IMG/VR virus record: IMGVR_UViG_3300008448_000045
Span: 1 to 64,000 of that record
Length of the DNA stretch: 64,000 nt
Reading direction: 5' to 3' (one strand)
DNA from: a virus
The notes beneath the pieces were generated by a model. That model was not told the origin of the DNA. It saw only the letters and a list, made by a program, of their open reading frames with translations, and did not search any database. Position numbers and translations under genes: made by a program. Positions 4,220 to 9,726 of the stretch are shown in pieces (within the stretch, counting starts at the first letter, position 1; every line of letters begins with the position of its first letter).

Positions 4220-5092
4220 TTATCGAGAACTTGGCCCTAGTCCATCTCCCCATTTCTTACCGGGAGTTTGACTCCAATCGTCAGCTTTAGACGATGTAGA
4301 ATCAATATCTTGTTTGGCATTAGGATCTTGACGGTCAGGTGTGCCAGAATTGTTAGATGTACTAGATCCTGAACTAGACTTGCCCATTAGCCATGTAGCT
4401 AATTTTTCAGTTGCATTGAATCCAACTCCAACACCAAATACTAGAATTCCTAAATTTTCAGTAAGTACATCTTGGCCTGCTGGGGTTAAAAAGAAAGAAT
4501 AAGCAGCCGCGGCACCCGTTGTTGTTCCAATTGCTCTTGTAATTACAGCCGCGGACTTAGCGCCTGAGGCATTTAGTAGCCACGGAAGTCTTCCTAGTAC
4601 CCAGTTTACTCCAACCTTCTGGCCAAGTTTAAGAGCAATTTTAGGTGCAATAATTCTTGTGATCATAGCACCACGTAGTTCTGTTAGTTTTTCTTGATAC
4701 TGTGCAGCTGTCATGTTGCCTTTTTTATATTCACTGTCTAGAGCCGGTTTAGCTACACCCCAATACCAAGCAACATTACCAATAATGTTAGCCCATCCCA
4801 TCCAGCTGATTAATTCTTTTGAATAGTGCCCAAGTACTTTGGCCTTAAGACTGGCAGATAATTCTTTTTCTGCTTGAGCTAGTAGTTTGTCGTCAACACG
4901 CTTTTCCAACTTGGCCCACATGGACAACTCAGGAGTAACTTTTTCAGCAGCAACTGCTAGATCAGCAGCTCCCCTTTCTGCGCCAGCCATAGCTCGTTGT
5001 GCAGGTGTTGAAGATCTTCCGGCGCCTTTTTCAAAGCCACGCATAAATGCATCAAACACGCCTTCATTAGTAATTACGTCAAGGATTTTCAT
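4220..5092 (-). CDS. Hypothetical late protein with hydrophobic segments (possible virion-internal/ejected protein, 290 aa)
   Basis: Long ORF with upstream ATAAATA; Gly/Ala-rich hydrophobic stretches; low-complexity C-terminus. Confidence 0.5.
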   Translation of the reverse strand: MKILDVITNEGVFDAFMRGFEKGAGRSSTPAQRAMAGAERGAADLAVAAEKVTPELSMWAKLEKRVDDKLLAQAEKELSASLKAKVLGHYSKELISWMGWANIIGNVAWYWGVAKPALDSEYKKGNMTAAQYQEKLTELRGAMITRIIAPKIALKLGQKVGVNWVLGRLPWLLNASGAKSAAVITRAIGTTTGAAAAYSFFLTPAGQDVLTENLGILVFGVGVGFNATEKLATWLMGKSSSGSSTSNNSGTPDRQDPNAKQDIDSTSSKADDWSQTPGKKWGDGLGPSSR

Positions 5093-5112
5093 TATAGTAT
5101 TCTCTTACAGAA

Positions 5113-5119
5113 TATTTAT
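5113..5119 (-). promoter_or_regulatory. Late promoter-like ATAAATA
   Basis: 20 nt upstream of ATG 5092. Confidence 0.55.
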
Positions 5120-5199
5120 GCTCTTTCTAGATCGTCTACGCCGATCTGTTCTTCGCTATCGCTCGAACTTATCTCTTTTCTTTAATTATGAAAGTATTA

Positions 5200-5588
5200 T
5201 AAACGCGAAGCGTTTAAAGATATTATCTAGATTGTGTAGTCACACTTAGCCCTTGCGGGCTAAAAAATGAACATTATCTGAGTTGAGCAGTTCACTTAGC
5301 GTTAACACTACAAGCATTTAGCTAGCTTAGGCGGTTATCCGGTACCTAATCATGTCGTCTTATACAACGGCGGGTCTGTACACATACGCTAACACGCATA
5401 CAGCCGTGGGTTTTTCACCCTCTTTTAGCCTATTTAAAATTCTTTTTAAACAGCAAAACCAGTTGTATGTAGGCATATCTGATCATCGTCCTGTAAAGGA
5501 TAGTTGCTGAGTACTCTTAACGGCGAGAGATTTCCTTACCCTGCGACATCACCAGGGATTTGAGCGCACGAATTTAGCCTGCGCTAGC
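5200..5588 (-). ncRNA. Putative large structured ncRNA (about 350-400 nt; boundaries approximate) or RNA-primed origin element
   Basis: Largest intergenic gap in the window. At least 9 helices; a GCAA tetraloop and several G-U pairs form only on the minus strand. Confidence 0.65.
5221..5300. repeat. Imperfect ~30-nt direct repeat pair (5221-5250 and 5272-5300)
   Basis: tattatctagattgtgtagtcacacttagc versus cattatctgagttgagcagttcacttagc. Confidence 0.65.
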
Positions 5589-6032
5589 TTAGACCGTTTG
5601 TTTTGCCTGTAGTTGTTCTTGTAGGCGTTGCCTTAGGATATTTGACCCGCCAACTCTAACATTAATAATACCGTTATAGTATTCGTCTGTTTCGAGTACA
5701 CGACGTTCAAACTGTTCTCTTGCCTCTAGATAGGACATTTCTGCCTTGGATTTGCAAAGATAAAGTATTTCTCGTTGGAAGTTTTCCGGACCTAGTTCTG
5801 TGACGTCTGCCTGTAGTCTATCACTTGATCCCCAGTAGTCGCGCCAATCGCTTTCTACTGTAGATCTACGTTTAAGTTTTTTGCCTTTGAGTGGTGGTTT
5901 CGTGCGTTTAAACTGTGCTAGTTTTTTGCCTATGTATTTTTGTCCGGTTTTTAGATTTGTGATGAGATACACAAAGCCGATACAGCCTTCGGGTATTTCT
6001 TCAACTAAACGATTTTGATAGTGCCACGTCAT
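5589..6032 (-). CDS. Stand-alone GIY-YIG family endonuclease (147 aa)
   Basis: GFVYLITN...KYIGKK motif, a candidate catalytic Glu in SYLEARE, and YYN; Lys/Arg-rich loop; no appended DNA-binding domain. Confidence 0.8.
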   Translation of the reverse strand: MTWHYQNRLVEEIPEGCIGFVYLITNLKTGQKYIGKKLAQFKRTKPPLKGKKLKRRSTVESDWRDYWGSSDRLQADVTELGPENFQREILYLCKSKAEMSYLEAREQFERRVLETDEYYNGIINVRVGGSNILRQRLQEQLQAKQTV

Positions 6033-6047
6033 GTAATATATACCTGA

Positions 6048-6305
6048 CTACTGAGCACCACCACCCTTCTTTTGAGCCTGTCTGCGAGCCTCTTTAGCTG
6101 CTAATTCTTTTTCTTTTTCCACTGACCAATCACGAATAACCACACGCCTACGTGAACATATTCGCCTAATTTCACTTAGGCTCTTACGGAGACGTACAGC
6201 AGATGCTTTGGTCCCCTCGTTGATCCACTGTTGGTTTAGTTCAAAATAACGCCTAAACTCAGCTAGCAGCTCAGCATGTAGTTGTTCATCTTGATTGGGT
6301 AGCAT
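6048..6305 (-). CDS. Small basic helical protein, Hc1 (histone H1-like) family-like
   Basis: EG.KASAVRLRKSL.EI pattern resembles the Hc1 KGNKAAAQRVR motif. Confidence 0.5.
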   Translation of the reverse strand: MLPNQDEQLHAELLAEFRRYFELNQQWINEGTKASAVRLRKSLSEIRRICSRRRVVIRDWSVEKEKELAAKEARRQAQKKGGGAQ

Positions 6306-6732
6306 TTAATAATTTTTCCGCCTCTGTGTCTACAACCCGCTGTCTAAGCTCGGTAGTAGAAAATGTGTGTTGCCTTTTGTTAAAATAAAAATCTATGCCT
6401 TTGTTTAGACACTCTACCTTGCCAGTGAAGTGTCGATTTTCGTATTCCTCACCTAAAATCCTAATGTTTATAGGATATGCAAGAAATATGTCAACTAATT
6501 CTTTTTCTGTAGAGTAAGGTATTATTTCATCTACATACTTGCAGGCTTCAAGCTGCACATATCTTTCAAACATACTTTGTACAGGTTTGTTTTTAGTACT
6601 AGGGCGATCAATAGTGGGATCTGTTTGCAGTCCCACTATCAGTCGATCACAAACAGTTCGTGCTTCTTTGAGCATGATAATATGCCCTGCATGAAACAGA
6701 TCAAATGTTGAACAGGTAAATCCTATGATCAT
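6286..6732 (-). CDS. Cytidylyltransferase, TagD/glycerol-3-phosphate cytidylyltransferase-like
   Basis: TFDLFHAGH (HxGH), LIVGLQTD, CKYVDE and R...FSTT motifs. Confidence 0.85.
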   Translation of the reverse strand: MIIGFTCSTFDLFHAGHIIMLKEARTVCDRLIVGLQTDPTIDRPSTKNKPVQSMFERYVQLEACKYVDEIIPYSTEKELVDIFLAYPINIRILGEEYENRHFTGKVECLNKGIDFYFNKRQHTFSTTELRQRVVDTEAEKLLNATQSR

Positions 6733-6941
6733 TTTGTTTGACTCATGATAAACTCAGCGTGGTCTCCGTTGATCGGAGCACCTTGATAAACTAGATGATC
6801 GTGCATGGCCATCATAGCATTGGCAAACCAAGCTAGCATAATATCATCCTCAATATTACAATGGGGGTGAGTTTCTCTAAAGAAGTTAGTCCACGCCTGA
6901 GCATCAGGATTTGAATGTATGGTCATGTCATAGTTGTTCAT
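6729..6941 (-). CDS. Hypothetical protein (70 aa)
   Basis: ATGA-coupled to both neighbours. Confidence 0.65.
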   Translation of the reverse strand: MNNYDMTIHSNPDAQAWTNFFRETHPHCNIEDDIMLAWFANAMMAMHDHLVYQGAPINGDHAEFIMSQTK

Positions 6942-8716
6942 TCTGTAACCTCTAAATCTGTAGCATACGATGTAAAGCCGTTTTCTTTGATAACTTTCAG
7001 CACATTGTTCACGCGACCAATTAGTTCGTCTTTGTGTGAAATTAAGTAGATGTTCTTCTTGCGCTCTCGACTCATCTTCTTAAGAACACTTAGCGCACTT
7101 TCAACACCTGACGCATCTAATCCGTTGTCAATTAGTTCGTCTACAAACAATAGATTAATGTTTTGATATAGACTTTCCCAAACATCACGGAACGCCCAGG
7201 ACAAGCCTAAGATCAAGCGATTACGCTCTCCCCTACTTAGATTATCAAAGTCTAGGTCTTGACCTAGTTGTGTAATCTCAACATTAAGATCGTTTTGGAA
7301 CGTAACACTATGCGGTAAGCCCATGCGATCCAGGTAATAAGTTAGTCTATTGTTTAGATAGGCTAGATTTTGATCAATGATCTTTTTGCGTATAAAGCTG
7401 TCTTTACTGGTCAATAACTTGAGTAAGAACTCCTGATGTTCTTTAAGTGTAGACAGCTCGTTGACAGCATCCCAAGTAATTTCCTGTAGGGCAGTATTGG
7501 TTAATTCGTCAATCTGCTCTTGATAAGGGTCAGTTTCTCCGGCTCTTATAGCCAGCTGTTGTTCAAGAGTTTTGAGATTATTTTGGTGTTTTAACGCCTC
7601 TTCTACTGTGTCGTAGTAAGTGTTTGGCCTACCATTGATCTCGCCAATGCCGTCAATTTCTGTTCGGATTTTATCTAAATCCCCAGTAACCTTAGCTAGA
7701 TATTTTTTTGCTTCATCTAGGTTTCCCTGCGCTGTAGACGTCATTTCGCCGTGTTTATGGTCATGCAACTCCTGTTCACAAGCATGGCACCGCTTATTCG
7801 CTAACTTCATAAGCTCGCTGTCGTACTTCGTGACGCTTCGCTCTGCTTGCGCTATCGCGCTTTCTAACGTAGCACGTTCCTTATTCAAGGACCGCAGTCT
7901 TGCAGACTGTTCGTTGTAGATTTTTAGCGCGGCATGCGTTGCAATTTCTGCTTCAATGTCTACATTTTCAAGCTCGATAATTGCCCTAGCAATTTTTTCA
8001 AGATCAACTTCTTTTTGCTTGTTCCAAACGGTTTGTTTGGTAATTAAACTGTCGATGCTTTTTTGTATGCTTTCATTTGATCGTTTTGTTGCTTCAATTT
8101 TAGCTGTTTCTTGAGCAATATCTTCTTTGGTTTGTCTAATAAACTCTTTTAGTTTTTCTGATTTTTCACTGAGTATAGTAATACCTAATAGCTGTTCGAT
8201 AATTGCTCTTTGATCGTTTGCTTTCATAGAAAGAAACGGTTCGGTGTAAGTGTTTAACGCTACTACATGTTTAAACATATCGTGACTCATACCTAGCAAT
8301 TCGTCTAGGTCTTTTTGTGTTTCACGCATATCGCCCTGGGCGTCGTCTGTTTCTTCAGATTCTTGTTCAATATCGTTTACATAAAACTGTAGTATGTTAG
8401 GTTTACGTCCTCGCTCAATACGATAAGTTTGGCTATCTTTCTCAAACGAAAGTGTAACTAACATATTTTTATTATTAATCTTGTTGATTAAGTTATCTTT
8501 TTTAATGTTAGTTAATGCTGTACCAAATAATGCATAGCTAAGGGCATTTACAATAGTAGTTTTACCAGTACCGTTACGACTACCGCTGTCGTCGCCCCCC
8601 ATGTCTAAATTTTCTCCGAGAACAAGGGTAAGATGTGTTTTTTCAAAATCTACAGCTTGGGTTTGATTACCCACGCTCATAAAGTTTTTGACTGTAAGTT
8701 CTTTTATTTTTATCAT
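6938..8716 (-). CDS. gp46: Rad50/SbcC-like recombination ATPase, T4 gp46-like
   Basis: Walker A NGTGKTT, coiled coil with CHAC zinc hook, LSRGE signature, Walker B LLFVDE, ISH. Confidence 0.95.
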   Translation of the reverse strand: MIKIKELTVKNFMSVGNQTQAVDFEKTHLTLVLGENLDMGGDDSGSRNGTGKTTIVNALSYALFGTALTNIKKDNLINKINNKNMLVTLSFEKDSQTYRIERGRKPNILQFYVNDIEQESEETDDAQGDMRETQKDLDELLGMSHDMFKHVVALNTYTEPFLSMKANDQRAIIEQLLGITILSEKSEKLKEFIRQTKEDIAQETAKIEATKRSNESIQKSIDSLITKQTVWNKQKEVDLEKIARAIIELENVDIEAEIATHAALKIYNEQSARLRSLNKERATLESAIAQAERSVTKYDSELMKLANKRCHACEQELHDHKHGEMTSTAQGNLDEAKKYLAKVTGDLDKIRTEIDGIGEINGRPNTYYDTVEEALKHQNNLKTLEQQLAIRAGETDPYQEQIDELTNTALQEITWDAVNELSTLKEHQEFLLKLLTSKDSFIRKKIIDQNLAYLNNRLTYYLDRMGLPHSVTFQNDLNVEITQLGQDLDFDNLSRGERNRLILGLSWAFRDVWESLYQNINLLFVDELIDNGLDASGVESALSVLKKMSRERKKNIYLISHKDELIGRVNNVLKVIKENGFTSYATDLEVTE

Positions 8717-9726
8717 AGGCTGTTATAAATCGCCAGTAGCGTATTTTTATTATACGTGTCGCTTTCAATATTCACAAGCTGACTGGACACAATTTGATCA
8801 ACACTTTCAAAAGATTGGATGTCAATGTTAGTATCAATTTCAGCAGCTTTCTTTTCTGCAATTAACGTAAGCTCTCGAATCTCGTACTGAGACATAAAGT
8901 TTTCTTTGATGAAACTAGCTTCTTCGTAGGTAATATCGATATCTAAAGTTACTCGAAGATGTTGTTTTGGTAAAATAAGAGAATCAGCTTCATCAATTAA
9001 CCTACTCAGATTAACGGTGCGGAAAGTTGGTTGCCCTGGCCAGCTATGGTATTCGGGCTTACCGCCCCACTCTAAAATCATCATGCCGCGTTCGTCATCC
9101 CACGCATCTGCATAGTTGTGTGGAAATGCATTGCCAATATAAATCATATTGCTTTTTTGCTGACGCTTGTGAAAATGTCCACTAAAACCTAACTCGTAAT
9201 TTTTAAAACTATCTAAGTTAATTTCTCCATGGTCCGGCATTTGTACCATAGCGTTCATAAAGAAGTTAGGCAATTCAAAGTGTCCAAAGATGTACTTGCC
9301 ACCTTTTTTGCCCACAGTCTTCCATTCGTCTCCTACAAGCCATGGACACATAGTTACATCACCAACAGTCATTGGTTTATGTACAATAGTAATACCGGGG
9401 ATGTACTTGCCAAACTCTACAGAGTGGATATCACGCTTATCTTTATAGTAAAGATCATGATTACCAGGAAAGAAATAAAACTGATCAAAAGCCTGTCCGA
9501 GCTTCTCCAATGCTCGAAGGCTGTAGTCCATAGTAGTGATATTAAGACTATTGCGGTTGTGATGCCAGTCGCCCATAAAAATACCTGTGTCACAGCCTTC
9601 CTCCTTAGCTTTTGCAATATACCAATCTACAAAGTCTTCACAGTCTTGATTATGCACTTGACTGTTAGACTTTAGCCCAAAGTGGATGTCTGTAAAACAG
9701 GCAACCTTTTTAAACAAATTACTCAT
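8713..9726 (-). CDS. gp47: Mre11/SbcD-like nuclease, T4 gp47-like
   Basis: Metallophosphoesterase motifs DIHFG, GD, GNHD, GHFH. Confidence 0.95.
   Translation of the reverse strand: MSNLFKKVACFTDIHFGLKSNSQVHNQDCEDFVDWYIAKAKEEGCDTGIFMGDWHHNRNSLNITTMDYSLRALEKLGQAFDQFYFFPGNHDLYYKDKRDIHSVEFGKYIPGITIVHKPMTVGDVTMCPWLVGDEWKTVGKKGGKYIFGHFELPNFFMNAMVQMPDHGEINLDSFKNYELGFSGHFHKRQQKSNMIYIGNAFPHNYADAWDDERGMMILEWGGKPEYHSWPGQPTFRTVNLSRLIDEADSLILPKQHLRVTLDIDITYEEASFIKENFMSQYEIRELTLIAEKKAAEIDTNIDIQSFESVDQIVSSQLVNIESDTYNKNTLLAIYNSL

What the first reader, a model, noticed from the sequence alone, without database searches (positions are those of the whole stretch)
5200..6032. Minimal GIY-YIG nuclease immediately followed by a ~400-nt structured minus-strand RNA: candidate nuclease-ncRNA system
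Seen in sequence: the only large intergenic region in this compact window starts folding 3 nt after the GIY-YIG stop. Minus-strand helices, 5' to 3': AGCGCA/UGCGCU (5563-5585); CCCUG/CAGGG (5539-5557); CUCU/AGAG (5514-5529); CAGCAA/UUGCUG closing a multibranch domain (about 5451-5509); CUGUUUAA/UUAAAUAG; GGGU-GAAAA-ACCC (5408-5420); a 12-bp stem CUGUAUGCGUGU-UAGC-GUAUGUGUACAG (5376-5403); UUAGG..CGG-AUAA-CCG-CCUAA (5327-5349); UUAGCCC-GCAA-GGGCUAA (5246-5263). The 12-bp stem has five G-U pairs that would be A-C mismatches on the plus strand. That, with the GNRA loop, points to selection on an RNA in the same sense as the nuclease gene. The protein is a bare catalytic domain with a basic KRTKPPLKGKKLKRR loop and none of the DNA-binding extensions of homing enzymes such as I-TevI. 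Established: HEARO/OMEGA RNAs partner HNH/RuvC nucleases; I know of no GIY-YIG equivalent. Inference: a ribonucleoprotein in which the RNA guides or scaffolds the nuclease, or a nuclease that processes a replication-primer RNA. Chance adjacency cannot be excluded, since similar small GIY-YIG genes occur in many T4-like phages.
Basis: partly seen in the sequence, partly recalled or inferred. Interest (0 to 1): 0.88.

Follow-up and report, generated by a model that had tools for sequence, protein, structure and literature searches.

The report
Orphan twin-box RNA behind nuclease gene
The gene-free stretch behind a small nuclease gene of this uncultured freshwater T4-like phage encodes a real, knotted non-coding RNA of about 465 bases. 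Its first third is the catalogued but unexplained Polynucleobacter-1 motif, and nothing shows that it guides the nuclease.

Summary
The stretch 5129-5589 (minus strand) is one structured RNA of about 465 nt. Its 5' 142 nt are a full-length match to Rfam RF01718 (Polynucleobacter-1, 92 bits against a cut-off of 37). The rest is conserved in more than 100 phage contigs. On 45 sequences, 53 of 99 pairs show compensatory changes. One 7-bp pseudoknot is well supported. Two 'twin boxes' always carry the same 7-8-nt word.

The guide or ribonucleoprotein reading is not supported:
- The homologous RNA sits in Polynucleobacter and Limnohabitans chromosomes without any GIY-YIG gene.
- The GIY-YIG family is common in phages that lack the RNA.
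- One phage has a PD-(D/E)XK nuclease in the same slot, and four have an extra gene between nuclease and RNA.
- GIY-YIG alleles are reshuffled relative to the gp46 backbone, while RNA similarity follows gp46 and not the nuclease.

Weinberg et al. 2010 had already noted that this RNA lies behind this gene family (PSSM2_218-like).

Best reading: an independent backbone RNA gene at the 3' end of the gp46/GIY-YIG gene row, function unknown. The twin boxes are most likely read by base pairing.

This scan has met the same RNA on other DNA several times, with the same conclusion. It is a new member of a known orphan family.

The parts
5589..6032 (-). Stand-alone GIY-YIG nuclease gene, 147 aa, catalytic domain only
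   Evidence: Pfam PF19835, E 4e-35. PHROG 447, whose 'NAD synthetase' label is a misannotation. The catalytic motifs are invariant in 65 homologues of 141-159 aa. 43% identical to PSSM2_218 of cyanophage P-SSM2.
5129..5589 (-). Full-length structured non-coding RNA (extended Polynucleobacter-1, 'twin-box' RNA), about 465 nt
   Evidence: Conserved from the stop codon to a terminal hairpin in 45-100 non-redundant phage sequences. 88.7% of cells paired against 78.3% in shuffles (0 of 500 reach it). 53 of 99 pairs have changes on both sides. Slid controls give 34-45%.
5448..5589 (-). 5' domain = Rfam RF01718 Polynucleobacter-1
   Evidence: cmscan 92.2 bits, gathering score 37, model positions 1-141 of 141.
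5376..5403 (-). 10-bp hairpin whose 8-nt loop (5393-5386) takes part in a pseudoknot
   Evidence: Helix 13: 12 of 12 pairs have changes on both sides. High mutual information.
5296..5302 (-). 3' strand of the pseudoknot (ACGCUAA), pairing with loop 5392-5386 (UUAGCGU)
   Evidence: Helix 14: 99.3% paired, 4 of 7 pairs compensatory, for example GC:26/AU:18.
5329..5347 (-). Nearly invariant mid-domain hairpin AGGUACCGGAUAACCGCCU
   Evidence: Invariant columns in A1. Used as the probe that retrieved 76 true RNAs out of 80 hits. A homologous AGG..ACCGCCCUU motif is present in the bacterial RNAs.
5272..5285 (-). Twin box 1 (CAACUC-AGAUAAU-G)
   Evidence: Identity covariation with box 2 at offset 51: same = 0.80-1.00 with 2-4 states per column.
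5246..5263 (-). Hairpin UUAGCCC-GCAA-GGGCUAA between the boxes
   Evidence: Helix 20: 98% paired, 2 pairs compensatory.
5221..5234 (-). Twin box 2 (CAAUCU-AGAUAAU-A)
   Evidence: The same design (GAACUC-W ... GAAUCU-W) is found in the bacterial homologues.
5201..5215 (-). Hairpin with invariant GCUUCGC top
   Evidence: Helix 21: 100% paired, 3 of 4 pairs compensatory.
5148..5168 (-). Hairpin GUUC-GAGCGAUAGCGAA-GAAC with conserved GAGCG..GCGAA interior
   Evidence: Conserved in phage type 1, phage type 2 and the bacterial RNAs.
5129..5147 (-). Terminal hairpin. Most relatives have a U-run after it (intrinsic terminator); this window does not.
   Evidence: Helix 22: 95% paired, 7 of 8 pairs compensatory. 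Alignment A1.
5113..5120 (-). T4-type late-promoter-like box CATAAATA of the next gene (4220-5092). It marks the 3' limit of the RNA and is not part of it.
   Evidence: ATAAATA is nearly invariant at this place in 45 loci.

Best explanation
The gap holds a self-contained, trans-acting structured RNA gene. It is the full-length form (about 465 nt) of the orphan Polynucleobacter-1 family.

Shown:
- The 5' third is RF01718.
- The whole RNA is under structural selection: hairpins, a three-way junction and at least one pseudoknot.
- It ends in its own terminal hairpin, just before the late promoter of the next gene.
- A homologous RNA of about 640 nt, with the same modules, lies in mobile islands of Polynucleobacter, Limnohabitans and other freshwater Burkholderiales. 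There it has no GIY-YIG gene beside it.
- In phages the RNA behaves as a backbone gene, while the GIY-YIG gene upstream is an exchangeable occupant of a fixed slot.

Inferred:
- In the phage the RNA is made by read-through from the gp46/GIY-YIG gene row, because no terminator or promoter lies between the stop codon and the first helix.
- It works without the nuclease.

Most likely mode of action (inference, low certainty): the folded body displays two identical single-stranded 7-8-nt words, the twin boxes A-CUC-W and A-UCU-W. These are read by base pairing with a nucleic-acid partner that is specific to each lineage.

The GIY-YIG protein is most likely an ordinary free-standing, horizontally exchanged nuclease gene of the Seg/phrog_447 kind.
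For: RNA and family:
- Rfam match at 92 bits.
- Covariation: 62 predicted pairs with 36 compensatory; 53 of 99 pairs compensatory, 0 of 500 shuffles reach the observed values, and slid controls give 34-45%.
- Pseudoknot 99.3% paired with 4 of 7 pairs compensatory.

Independence from the nuclease:
- 27 bacterial loci carry the RNA (six tested by Rfam score 86-97 bits). None has a GIY-YIG gene. The context is DUF6641 on one side and often a 188-aa tyrosine recombinase on the other.
- Melnitz, phiN3 and S-SRM01 carry the GIY-YIG gene but have no RF01718 anywhere in the genome. In P-SSM2, PSSM2_218 abuts the next gene.
- 776 phage records hold the protein family, most of them cyanophages and FelixO1-like phages.
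- L141 has a PD-(D/E)XK nuclease in the slot. Four loci have an extra gene between GIY-YIG and the RNA.
- GIY-YIG alleles (85-91%, 73-76% or 52-60% identity) are uncorrelated with gp46 identity (rho -0.05). RNA identity follows gp46 (rho 0.39, p 5e-4) and not GIY-YIG (rho -0.07). All four combinations occur.
- Type-2 RNAs, with a different 5' domain, occur behind GIY-YIG proteins of 74-85% identity to the window's, and type-1 RNAs occur behind proteins of 75% identity.

Twin boxes:
- Identity covariation in phages and in bacteria.
Against: Within this phage clade the RNA nearly always begins 0-15 nt after the stop codon of a nuclease gene. About 62 of 66 RNA-first loci with room upstream show this. 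The one clear replacement is again a nuclease. A functional tie is therefore not excluded.

No transcript ends are known. Metatranscriptome assemblies hold relatives of both the ORF and the RNA, but as contigs only.

No partner of the twin boxes was found, so the base-pairing mode is an inference from the pattern alone.

The correlation tests use related sequences and are not independent samples.
Confidence: 0.65

Rival explanations
1. Nuclease-RNA ribonucleoprotein. The RNA guides, scaffolds or inhibits the domain-only GIY-YIG nuclease, which has no DNA-binding domain of its own.
For: - The protein is always a bare catalytic domain of 141-159 aa.
- The adjacency is tight and conserved across GIY-YIG proteins of 50-94% identity, and across two RNA types.
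- A different nuclease sits in the same slot in L141.
- In bacteria the RNA often precedes a catalytic-domain-only tyrosine recombinase.
Against: - The RNA occurs without the nuclease in bacteria.
- The nuclease occurs without the RNA in hundreds of phages.
- Extra genes are tolerated between the two.
- The protein allele and the RNA do not co-vary.
- There is no hypervariable guide. The only variable words are 7-8 nt long, take few states, and have no matching target.
- Five large phage contigs, one of them 99% complete, have the RNA but no recombinase.
Confidence: 0.07
2. Cis-acting 3' untranslated region. The structured block stabilises or regulates the gp46/GIY-YIG operon mRNA and has no function in trans.
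For: It starts at the stop codon, with no terminator or promoter in between. It ends in a terminator-like hairpin.
Against: In bacteria the homologous RNA stands alone. It has its own conserved upstream box and follows no ORF. Pseudoknots, invariant single-stranded motifs and twin boxes go beyond what a protective 3' end needs. The upstream gene varies.
Confidence: 0.1
3. Primer or origin RNA of the ColE1 RNA II or T4 R-loop kind. The transcript folds so that the upstream box pairs with template DNA at the downstream box, starts a persistent RNA-DNA hybrid, and primes replication. Host islands carry a copy so that they are replicated during infection.
For: - It would explain why two direct words must be identical: RNA word 1 is complementary to the template DNA under word 2.
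- An A/T-rich spacer of variable length follows box 2.
- The RNA is shared by phages and by mobile islands of their likely hosts.
Against: - The fixed CUC/UCU difference would mismatch in such a hybrid.
- Cumulative GC skew turns at about 11-12 kb, not at the RNA. This is weak evidence for a T4-like phage.
- The RNA ends in a terminator.
- No origin data exist.
Confidence: 0.08
4. Mobile homing cassette. The GIY-YIG gene is a homing endonuclease, and the RNA gene is merely its conserved landing site or a co-converted neighbour.
For: - GIY-YIG alleles are reshuffled relative to the gp46 backbone.
- Another nuclease family occupies the same slot in L141.
- The genes around the slot vary.
Against: - Almost every genome has an occupant, so no empty sites were seen.
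- The protein lacks the DNA-binding tail of Seg and I-TevI enzymes.
- This explains the adjacency but not what the RNA does. It is compatible with the best explanation.
Confidence: 0.35

Closest known systems
Polynucleobacter-1 RNA motif (Rfam RF01718; Weinberg et al. 2010, Genome Biol 11:R31, PMC2864571)
   Same: The 5' 142 nt match the whole model at 92 bits. The RNA lies downstream of a PSSM2_218-like gene, as the authors noted. It occurs in Polynucleobacter and in freshwater samples.
   Different: The Rfam model covers only the first third. The remaining 320 nt or so are not in Rfam: the pseudoknot, the ACCGCC hairpin, the twin boxes, the GAGCG hairpin and the terminator. The authors found no copy in a purified phage and did not name the neighbouring gene a GIY-YIG nuclease. 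Function unknown.
OMEGA/HEARO RNAs of IscB and TnpB (RNA-guided nucleases)
   Same: A large structured RNA encoded right next to a compact nuclease gene, in the same sense.
   Different: There the RNA and the nuclease always co-occur and co-evolve, and the RNA ends in a variable guide that matches DNA beside the element. Here each occurs without the other, they do not co-vary, and no guide or target was found. The nuclease fold is also different (GIY-YIG).
Free-standing GIY-YIG homing endonucleases of T4-like phages (SegA-G) and I-TevI
   Same: A GIY-YIG catalytic domain of the SegE type. The gene sits between conserved genes, and its alleles are exchanged between phage backbones.
   Different: There is no C-terminal DNA-binding domain (141-159 aa). 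The gene is almost universally present rather than sporadic.
Large ornate phage and bacterial RNAs of unknown function (GOLLD, ROOL, raiA, OLE)
   Same: Several hundred nucleotides, multiple pseudoknots, found in phages and in bacterial mobile DNA, with no known protein partner.
   Different: No sequence or model match to any of them. The twin identical words have no counterpart that I know of in those RNAs (from my own knowledge).
ColE1 RNA II pre-primer
   Same: About 500 nt and highly folded. An upstream RNA segment must match DNA further downstream. This is the only known mechanism I can name that predicts direct-repeat identity (from my own knowledge).
   Different: There is no evidence of an origin, of a hybrid or of RNase H processing here. 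The RNA ends at a terminator.

Membership tests
Rfam RF01718 Polynucleobacter-1 RNA | Covariance-model score above the curated gathering score over the whole model | tested here: met
   92.2 bits against 37, model positions 1-141 of 141, minus strand 5448-5589.
Rfam RF01718 Polynucleobacter-1 RNA | Consensus helices kept by compensatory changes in relatives | tested here: met
   Helices 3, 7 and 9 of the 5' domain have 3-4 compensatory pairs each.
Rfam RF01718 Polynucleobacter-1 RNA | Location downstream of a GOS11034 / PSSM2_218-like gene, as described by the authors | tested here: met
   Authors' text. The window's protein is 43% identical to PSSM2_218, E 4e-25.
RNA-guided nuclease systems (IscB/TnpB with omega RNA) | Obligate co-occurrence of the nuclease gene and the RNA | tested here: not met
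   RNA without the nuclease in 27 bacterial loci. Nuclease without the RNA in Melnitz, phiN3, S-SRM01 and P-SSM2.
RNA-guided nuclease systems (IscB/TnpB with omega RNA) | Variable guide segment complementary to a DNA target | tested here: not met
   The only variable words are the 7-8-nt twin boxes. No complementary site was found in the RNA, the loci or the window. At 7-8 nt a genome-wide search has little power.
RNA-guided nuclease systems (IscB/TnpB with omega RNA) | Co-evolution of the protein and the RNA scaffold | tested here: not met
   RNA identity against GIY-YIG identity: rho -0.07. All allele combinations occur.
RNA-guided nuclease systems (IscB/TnpB with omega RNA) | Physical ribonucleoprotein and RNA-dependent cleavage | not testable with these tools
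   Needs RIP-seq and cleavage assays.
Seg-type free-standing GIY-YIG homing endonucleases | GIY-YIG catalytic domain with conserved catalytic residues | tested here: met
   PF19835, E 4e-35. The motifs are invariant in 65 sequences.
Seg-type free-standing GIY-YIG homing endonucleases | C-terminal DNA-binding domain | tested here: not met
   The domain spans residues 3-123 of 147. Homologues are 141-159 aa long.
Seg-type free-standing GIY-YIG homing endonucleases | Sporadic presence or horizontal exchange among related genomes | tested here: inconclusive
   Alleles are reshuffled relative to gp46 and once replaced by a PD-(D/E)XK nuclease. No empty site was seen among about 66 loci.
Type III toxin-antitoxin RNA (ToxI-like) | Array of fully identical tandem repeats followed by the toxin gene | tested here: not met
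   Only two partly similar units, embedded in a large unique fold. The nuclease gene lies upstream, not downstream.

The most novel reading that the evidence does not exclude
The twin-box RNA is a programmable nucleic-acid reader that supplies target recognition to DNA enzymes lacking a DNA-binding domain of their own. Its two identical words each pair with a copy of the same DNA sequence. The enzymes would be the bare GIY-YIG or PD-(D/E)XK nucleases in phages and the 188-aa catalytic-domain-only tyrosine recombinase in host islands. This would be a new class of RNA-guided DNA enzymes.
Probability: 0.04. Interest if true: 0.95.

Novelty: new member of a known kind. Interest (0 to 1): 0.45.

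Why it matters
A 465-640-nt RNA with pseudoknots is conserved in hundreds of freshwater T4-like phages and also in mobile islands of their likely hosts. It is one of the larger orphan RNAs still without a function, and the public model covers only a third of it.

The twin boxes are two words that are always identical within one RNA but differ between lineages. They give a concrete, testable handle on the RNA's function. They imply that one reader sees both words, most simply by base pairing.

For annotation, three points follow:
- The 'NAD synthetase' label on this protein family is wrong. It is a GIY-YIG nuclease.
- The nuclease gene behaves as an exchangeable cassette beside a backbone RNA gene.
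- The attractive idea of an RNA-guided GIY-YIG enzyme has no support here.

Tried and rejected
- blastn of the locus against cultured phages: no match.
- tRNA scan of the window: none.
- Sequence search of the GIY-YIG protein against PDB chains: no hit.
- Sigma-70 promoter and terminator scan of 4900-7000: no more sites than in shuffles, and none placed to drive the RNA.
- Pairing of box 1 with box 2, as proposed by RNAalifold: no compensatory change, broken in the AG and GC word variants. Rejected.
- Search for a sequence complementary to both boxes. Covariation partners: none. Within the loci: 9 scattered hits with no common place. In the 64-kb window: none. Inside each RNA: one peak at about 5456 in 25 of 79 sequences, which is a U/G-rich strand pairing by wobble and does not covary.
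- Covariation of the mid-domain loop with the boxes: none by inspection.
- Metatranscriptome runs: contigs of relatives cover the ORF and the RNA in four studies, but they give no ends, strand or level. Flanks without cover only reflect lack of conservation.
- DUF6641, the bacterial neighbour: AlphaFold model with pLDDT 85, but no fold match in the PDB with E below 0.001. No paper mentions it. It is absent from this phage record and from five large phage contigs.
- Tyrosine recombinase: absent from this phage record and from five large phage contigs.
- GC skew: no turn at the RNA.
- L114's 175-aa and L105/L149's 257- and 283-aa neighbour proteins: no Pfam or PHROG family.
- Single-sequence folding z-scores do not separate the strands.
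Full report
WHAT IS THERE

The window is a fragment of an uncultured T4-like phage (an IMG/VR record of 76.8 kb). On the minus strand the genes run in this order:
- gp47-like gene (8713-9726)
- gp46/Rad50-like gene (6938-8716)
- three small genes: a 70-aa ORF, a cytidylyltransferase and an 85-aa ORF
- a 147-aa GIY-YIG gene (5589-6032; Pfam PF19835, E 4e-35)
- a gene-free stretch
- a late-promoter-like CATAAATA box (5120-5113)
- a 290-aa ORF (4220-5092)

With ORFs of 70 aa or more on either strand, 5250-5588 is the only ORF-free gap of 300 nt or more in the 64 kb.

THE RNA IS REAL, AND ITS FIRST THIRD IS CATALOGUED

cmscan places a full-length Polynucleobacter-1 RNA (Rfam RF01718) at 5448-5589 on the minus strand, at 92.2 bits against a gathering score of 37.

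A search with the GIY-YIG protein in viral contigs gave more than 593 relatives, and the best 80 were kept. In 66 of these the roughly 450 nt after the stop codon match the window at 67-83% identity. Most of the rest are cut short by the contig end.

An alignment of 45 non-redundant copies (A1) shows conservation from the stop codon to a terminal hairpin and an ATAAATA box.
- RNAalifold finds 62 pairs, 36 of them with compensatory changes.
- My structure of 99 pairs is 88.7% paired, against 78.3% in column shuffles (0 of 500 reach it) and 34-45% when the partners are slid by 1-3 columns. 53 pairs have changes on both sides.
- The 8-nt loop of the long hairpin (5393-5386) pairs with 5302-5296. 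This 7-bp pseudoknot is 99.3% paired, with 4 of 7 pairs compensatory.

Folding energy of the single sequence is not distinctive on either strand, so the case rests on comparison. The minus strand is the right one: the Rfam match is on it, the long stem has five G-U pairs, and terminal hairpins followed by U-runs occur on it in relatives.

THE TWIN BOXES

Two units follow each other. Each unit consists of the 3' strand of a helix, then GUGUGAC, then 5-6 nt, then a box, then a hairpin.
- Box 1: 5285-5272, CAACUC-AGAUAAU-G.
- Box 2: 5234-5221, CAAUCU-AGAUAAU-A.

The boxes lie 51 nt apart. Across 100 non-redundant sequences the variable positions are the same in both boxes (same = 0.80-1.00, with 2-4 states per column). 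The CUC/UCU triplet differs in every sequence. This is identity covariation, not complementarity.

I found no complementary partner in the RNA, in the loci or in the window, and the two boxes do not pair with each other. L023 is a natural deletion of one unit.

IS THE RNA TIED TO THE NUCLEASE?

Searching with the RNA alone (the invariant mid-domain 17-mer) gave 80 loci. 76 of them hold the RNA.
- Of those with room upstream, all but two have a GIY-YIG gene, now at only 50-89% identity.
- In 58 or so it ends about 250 nt before the probe, that is, right at the start of the RNA. In four it lies one gene further up.
- The exceptions are L141, where a PD-(D/E)XK endonuclease (PF24608, E 6e-30) takes the slot, and L114, with an unassigned 175-aa ORF.

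All loci share the order gp46, slot, RNA, so the adjacency is conserved synteny within one phage group.

Weinberg et al. 2010 had already written that most Polynucleobacter-1 RNAs lie downstream of genes of family GOS11034, with possible homology to PSSM2_218. PSSM2_218 is indeed a homologue of the window's protein (43% identity, E 4e-25).

FOUR RESULTS AGAINST A WORKING PAIR

(1) The RNA occurs without the nuclease. A pattern from the published alignment found 27 loci in genomes and MAGs labelled mostly Polynucleobacter, Limnohabitans and other freshwater Burkholderiales. Six of them, tested by Rfam, score 86-97 bits. None has a GIY-YIG gene. These RNAs are homologous to the phage RNA over their whole length: the RF01718 domain, the AGG..ACCGCC hairpin, twin boxes GAACUC-W and GAAUCU-W with the same word W, the GAGCG..GCGAA hairpin and a terminator. 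Their neighbours are a divergent DUF6641 gene and, in 13 of about 21 loci, a 188-195-aa tyrosine recombinase. One 20-kb stretch between two copies carries island-type cargo and a second integrase.

(2) The nuclease occurs without the RNA. The family (PHROG 447, mislabelled 'NAD synthetase') is present in 776 phage records. Melnitz, phiN3 and S-SRM01 have no RF01718 in the whole genome. In P-SSM2 the gene abuts the next one.

(3) There is no co-evolution. GIY-YIG identity to the window falls into classes (85-91%, 73-76%, 52-60%) that are unrelated to gp46 identity (rho -0.05). RNA identity follows gp46 (rho 0.39, p 5e-4) and not the nuclease (rho -0.07). All four combinations occur: 14, 12, 37 and 12 loci. 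These are related sequences, so the p-value is only a guide, but the reassortment is plain.

(4) The 5' domain can be swapped. L046, L068, L074 and L076 carry another 5' domain (type 2) with the same 3' modules, behind GIY-YIG proteins of 74-85% identity to the window's. L058 and L072, at 75% identity, have type 1.

Five large phage contigs, one of them 99% complete, have one RNA copy each and neither a tyrosine recombinase nor DUF6641. So the bacterial neighbours are not needed either.

WHAT IT MOST LIKELY IS

It is an independent RNA gene of the phage backbone. It is probably transcribed by read-through from the gp46/GIY-YIG genes, because nothing that looks like a terminator or promoter lies between the stop codon and the first helix. 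It ends at its own hairpin.

The GIY-YIG gene is always a bare, catalytically intact domain. It behaves as an exchangeable cassette in a fixed slot, as free-standing homing nucleases do, although no empty slot was seen.

How the RNA acts is not known. Two words must stay identical while they drift between lineages, which is most simply explained by base pairing to one kind of nucleic-acid partner. A ColE1-RNA-II-like RNA-DNA hybrid is the only known mechanism I can name that predicts direct-repeat identity, and it has no direct support here.

COMPARISON AND NOVELTY

This is a member of RF01718. Its uncatalogued two-thirds were partly visible in the authors' raw alignment. It does not meet the defining features of omega-RNA nuclease systems. 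No paper in the library other than the 2010 survey mentions the motif.

Earlier reports of this scan describe the same RNA on other DNA and reach the same conclusions: real RNA, twin boxes, no tie to the nuclease shown, and a bacterial island copy. I reached the twin boxes and the bacterial context before reading them. I reuse their term 'twin box'.

VERDICT

- Observation: confirmed.
- Interpretation: partly supported. There is an RNA, but no guide.
- Novelty: new member of a known orphan family.
- Interest: moderate, because the RNA itself is a good open problem.

Noticed in passing
window 5113-5120 (-), and column block 606-616 of alignment A1: A T4-type late-promoter box ((C/A)ATAAATA) stands directly after the RNA's terminal hairpin in all 45 aligned loci. 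It precedes a downstream gene that differs between phages.
   Followed up: partly
L046:3726-4250, L068:752-1300, L074:3347-3895, L076 (after an extra ORF): Type-2 variant of the RNA. It has a different 5' domain (GUUGGCGGGCCAGUUU..ACCGCUGUGGAAAAACC) with no Rfam match. It keeps the twin boxes, the GCUUCGC-type hairpin, the GAGCG..GCGAA hairpin and the terminator.
   Followed up: partly
L141:8819-9385 (+): A PD-(D/E)XK endonuclease (PF24608; PHROG 244, labelled 'RusA-like resolvase') occupies the slot between gp46 and the RNA in place of the GIY-YIG gene.
   Followed up: partly
L203-L229 (for example L221:3626-5640); L236 = G007:C1:400300-420299: In freshwater Burkholderiales chromosomes a homologous RNA of about 640 nt lies between a divergent DUF6641 gene and, often, a 188-aa catalytic-domain-only tyrosine recombinase. 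One Polynucleobacter genome has two such units 18 kb apart. Between them lie island cargo (ArsR, rhodanese, MFS transporter, a restriction-enzyme fragment, an AAA ATPase) and a second integrase.
   Followed up: partly
bacterial loci, about 100 nt upstream of the RF01718 domain (alignment, columns 45-75): A conserved upstream box, CTTTTATTAGGTTTNGCTAAATAA. Its TAAATA core resembles the phage late-promoter box. If phage late transcription reads it, the island RNA would be switched on by infection. Not tested.
   Followed up: no
L023:3442-3964: Natural deletion of one repeat unit (box 1, the hairpin and the pseudoknot strand), leaving a single box. It looks like recombination between the GUGUGAC repeats.
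   Followed up: no
window 5589-6032 and 776 phage records: This small GIY-YIG family (PHROG 447) is annotated 'NAD synthetase' in many RefSeq and GenBank phage records, including PSSM2_218. Pfam assigns it to the SegE-type GIY-YIG domain, and the GIY..YIG motifs are invariant across homologues, so the label is wrong.
   Followed up: yes
window 5577-5591 (-) and the P1 loop 5566-5578: The few bases between the stop codon and helix P1 (AGCU here, GGCU or CGCC in relatives) change together with the P1 loop (GGCU, GGCC or GGCG). This suggests a further small pseudoknot at the very 5' end.
   Followed up: no
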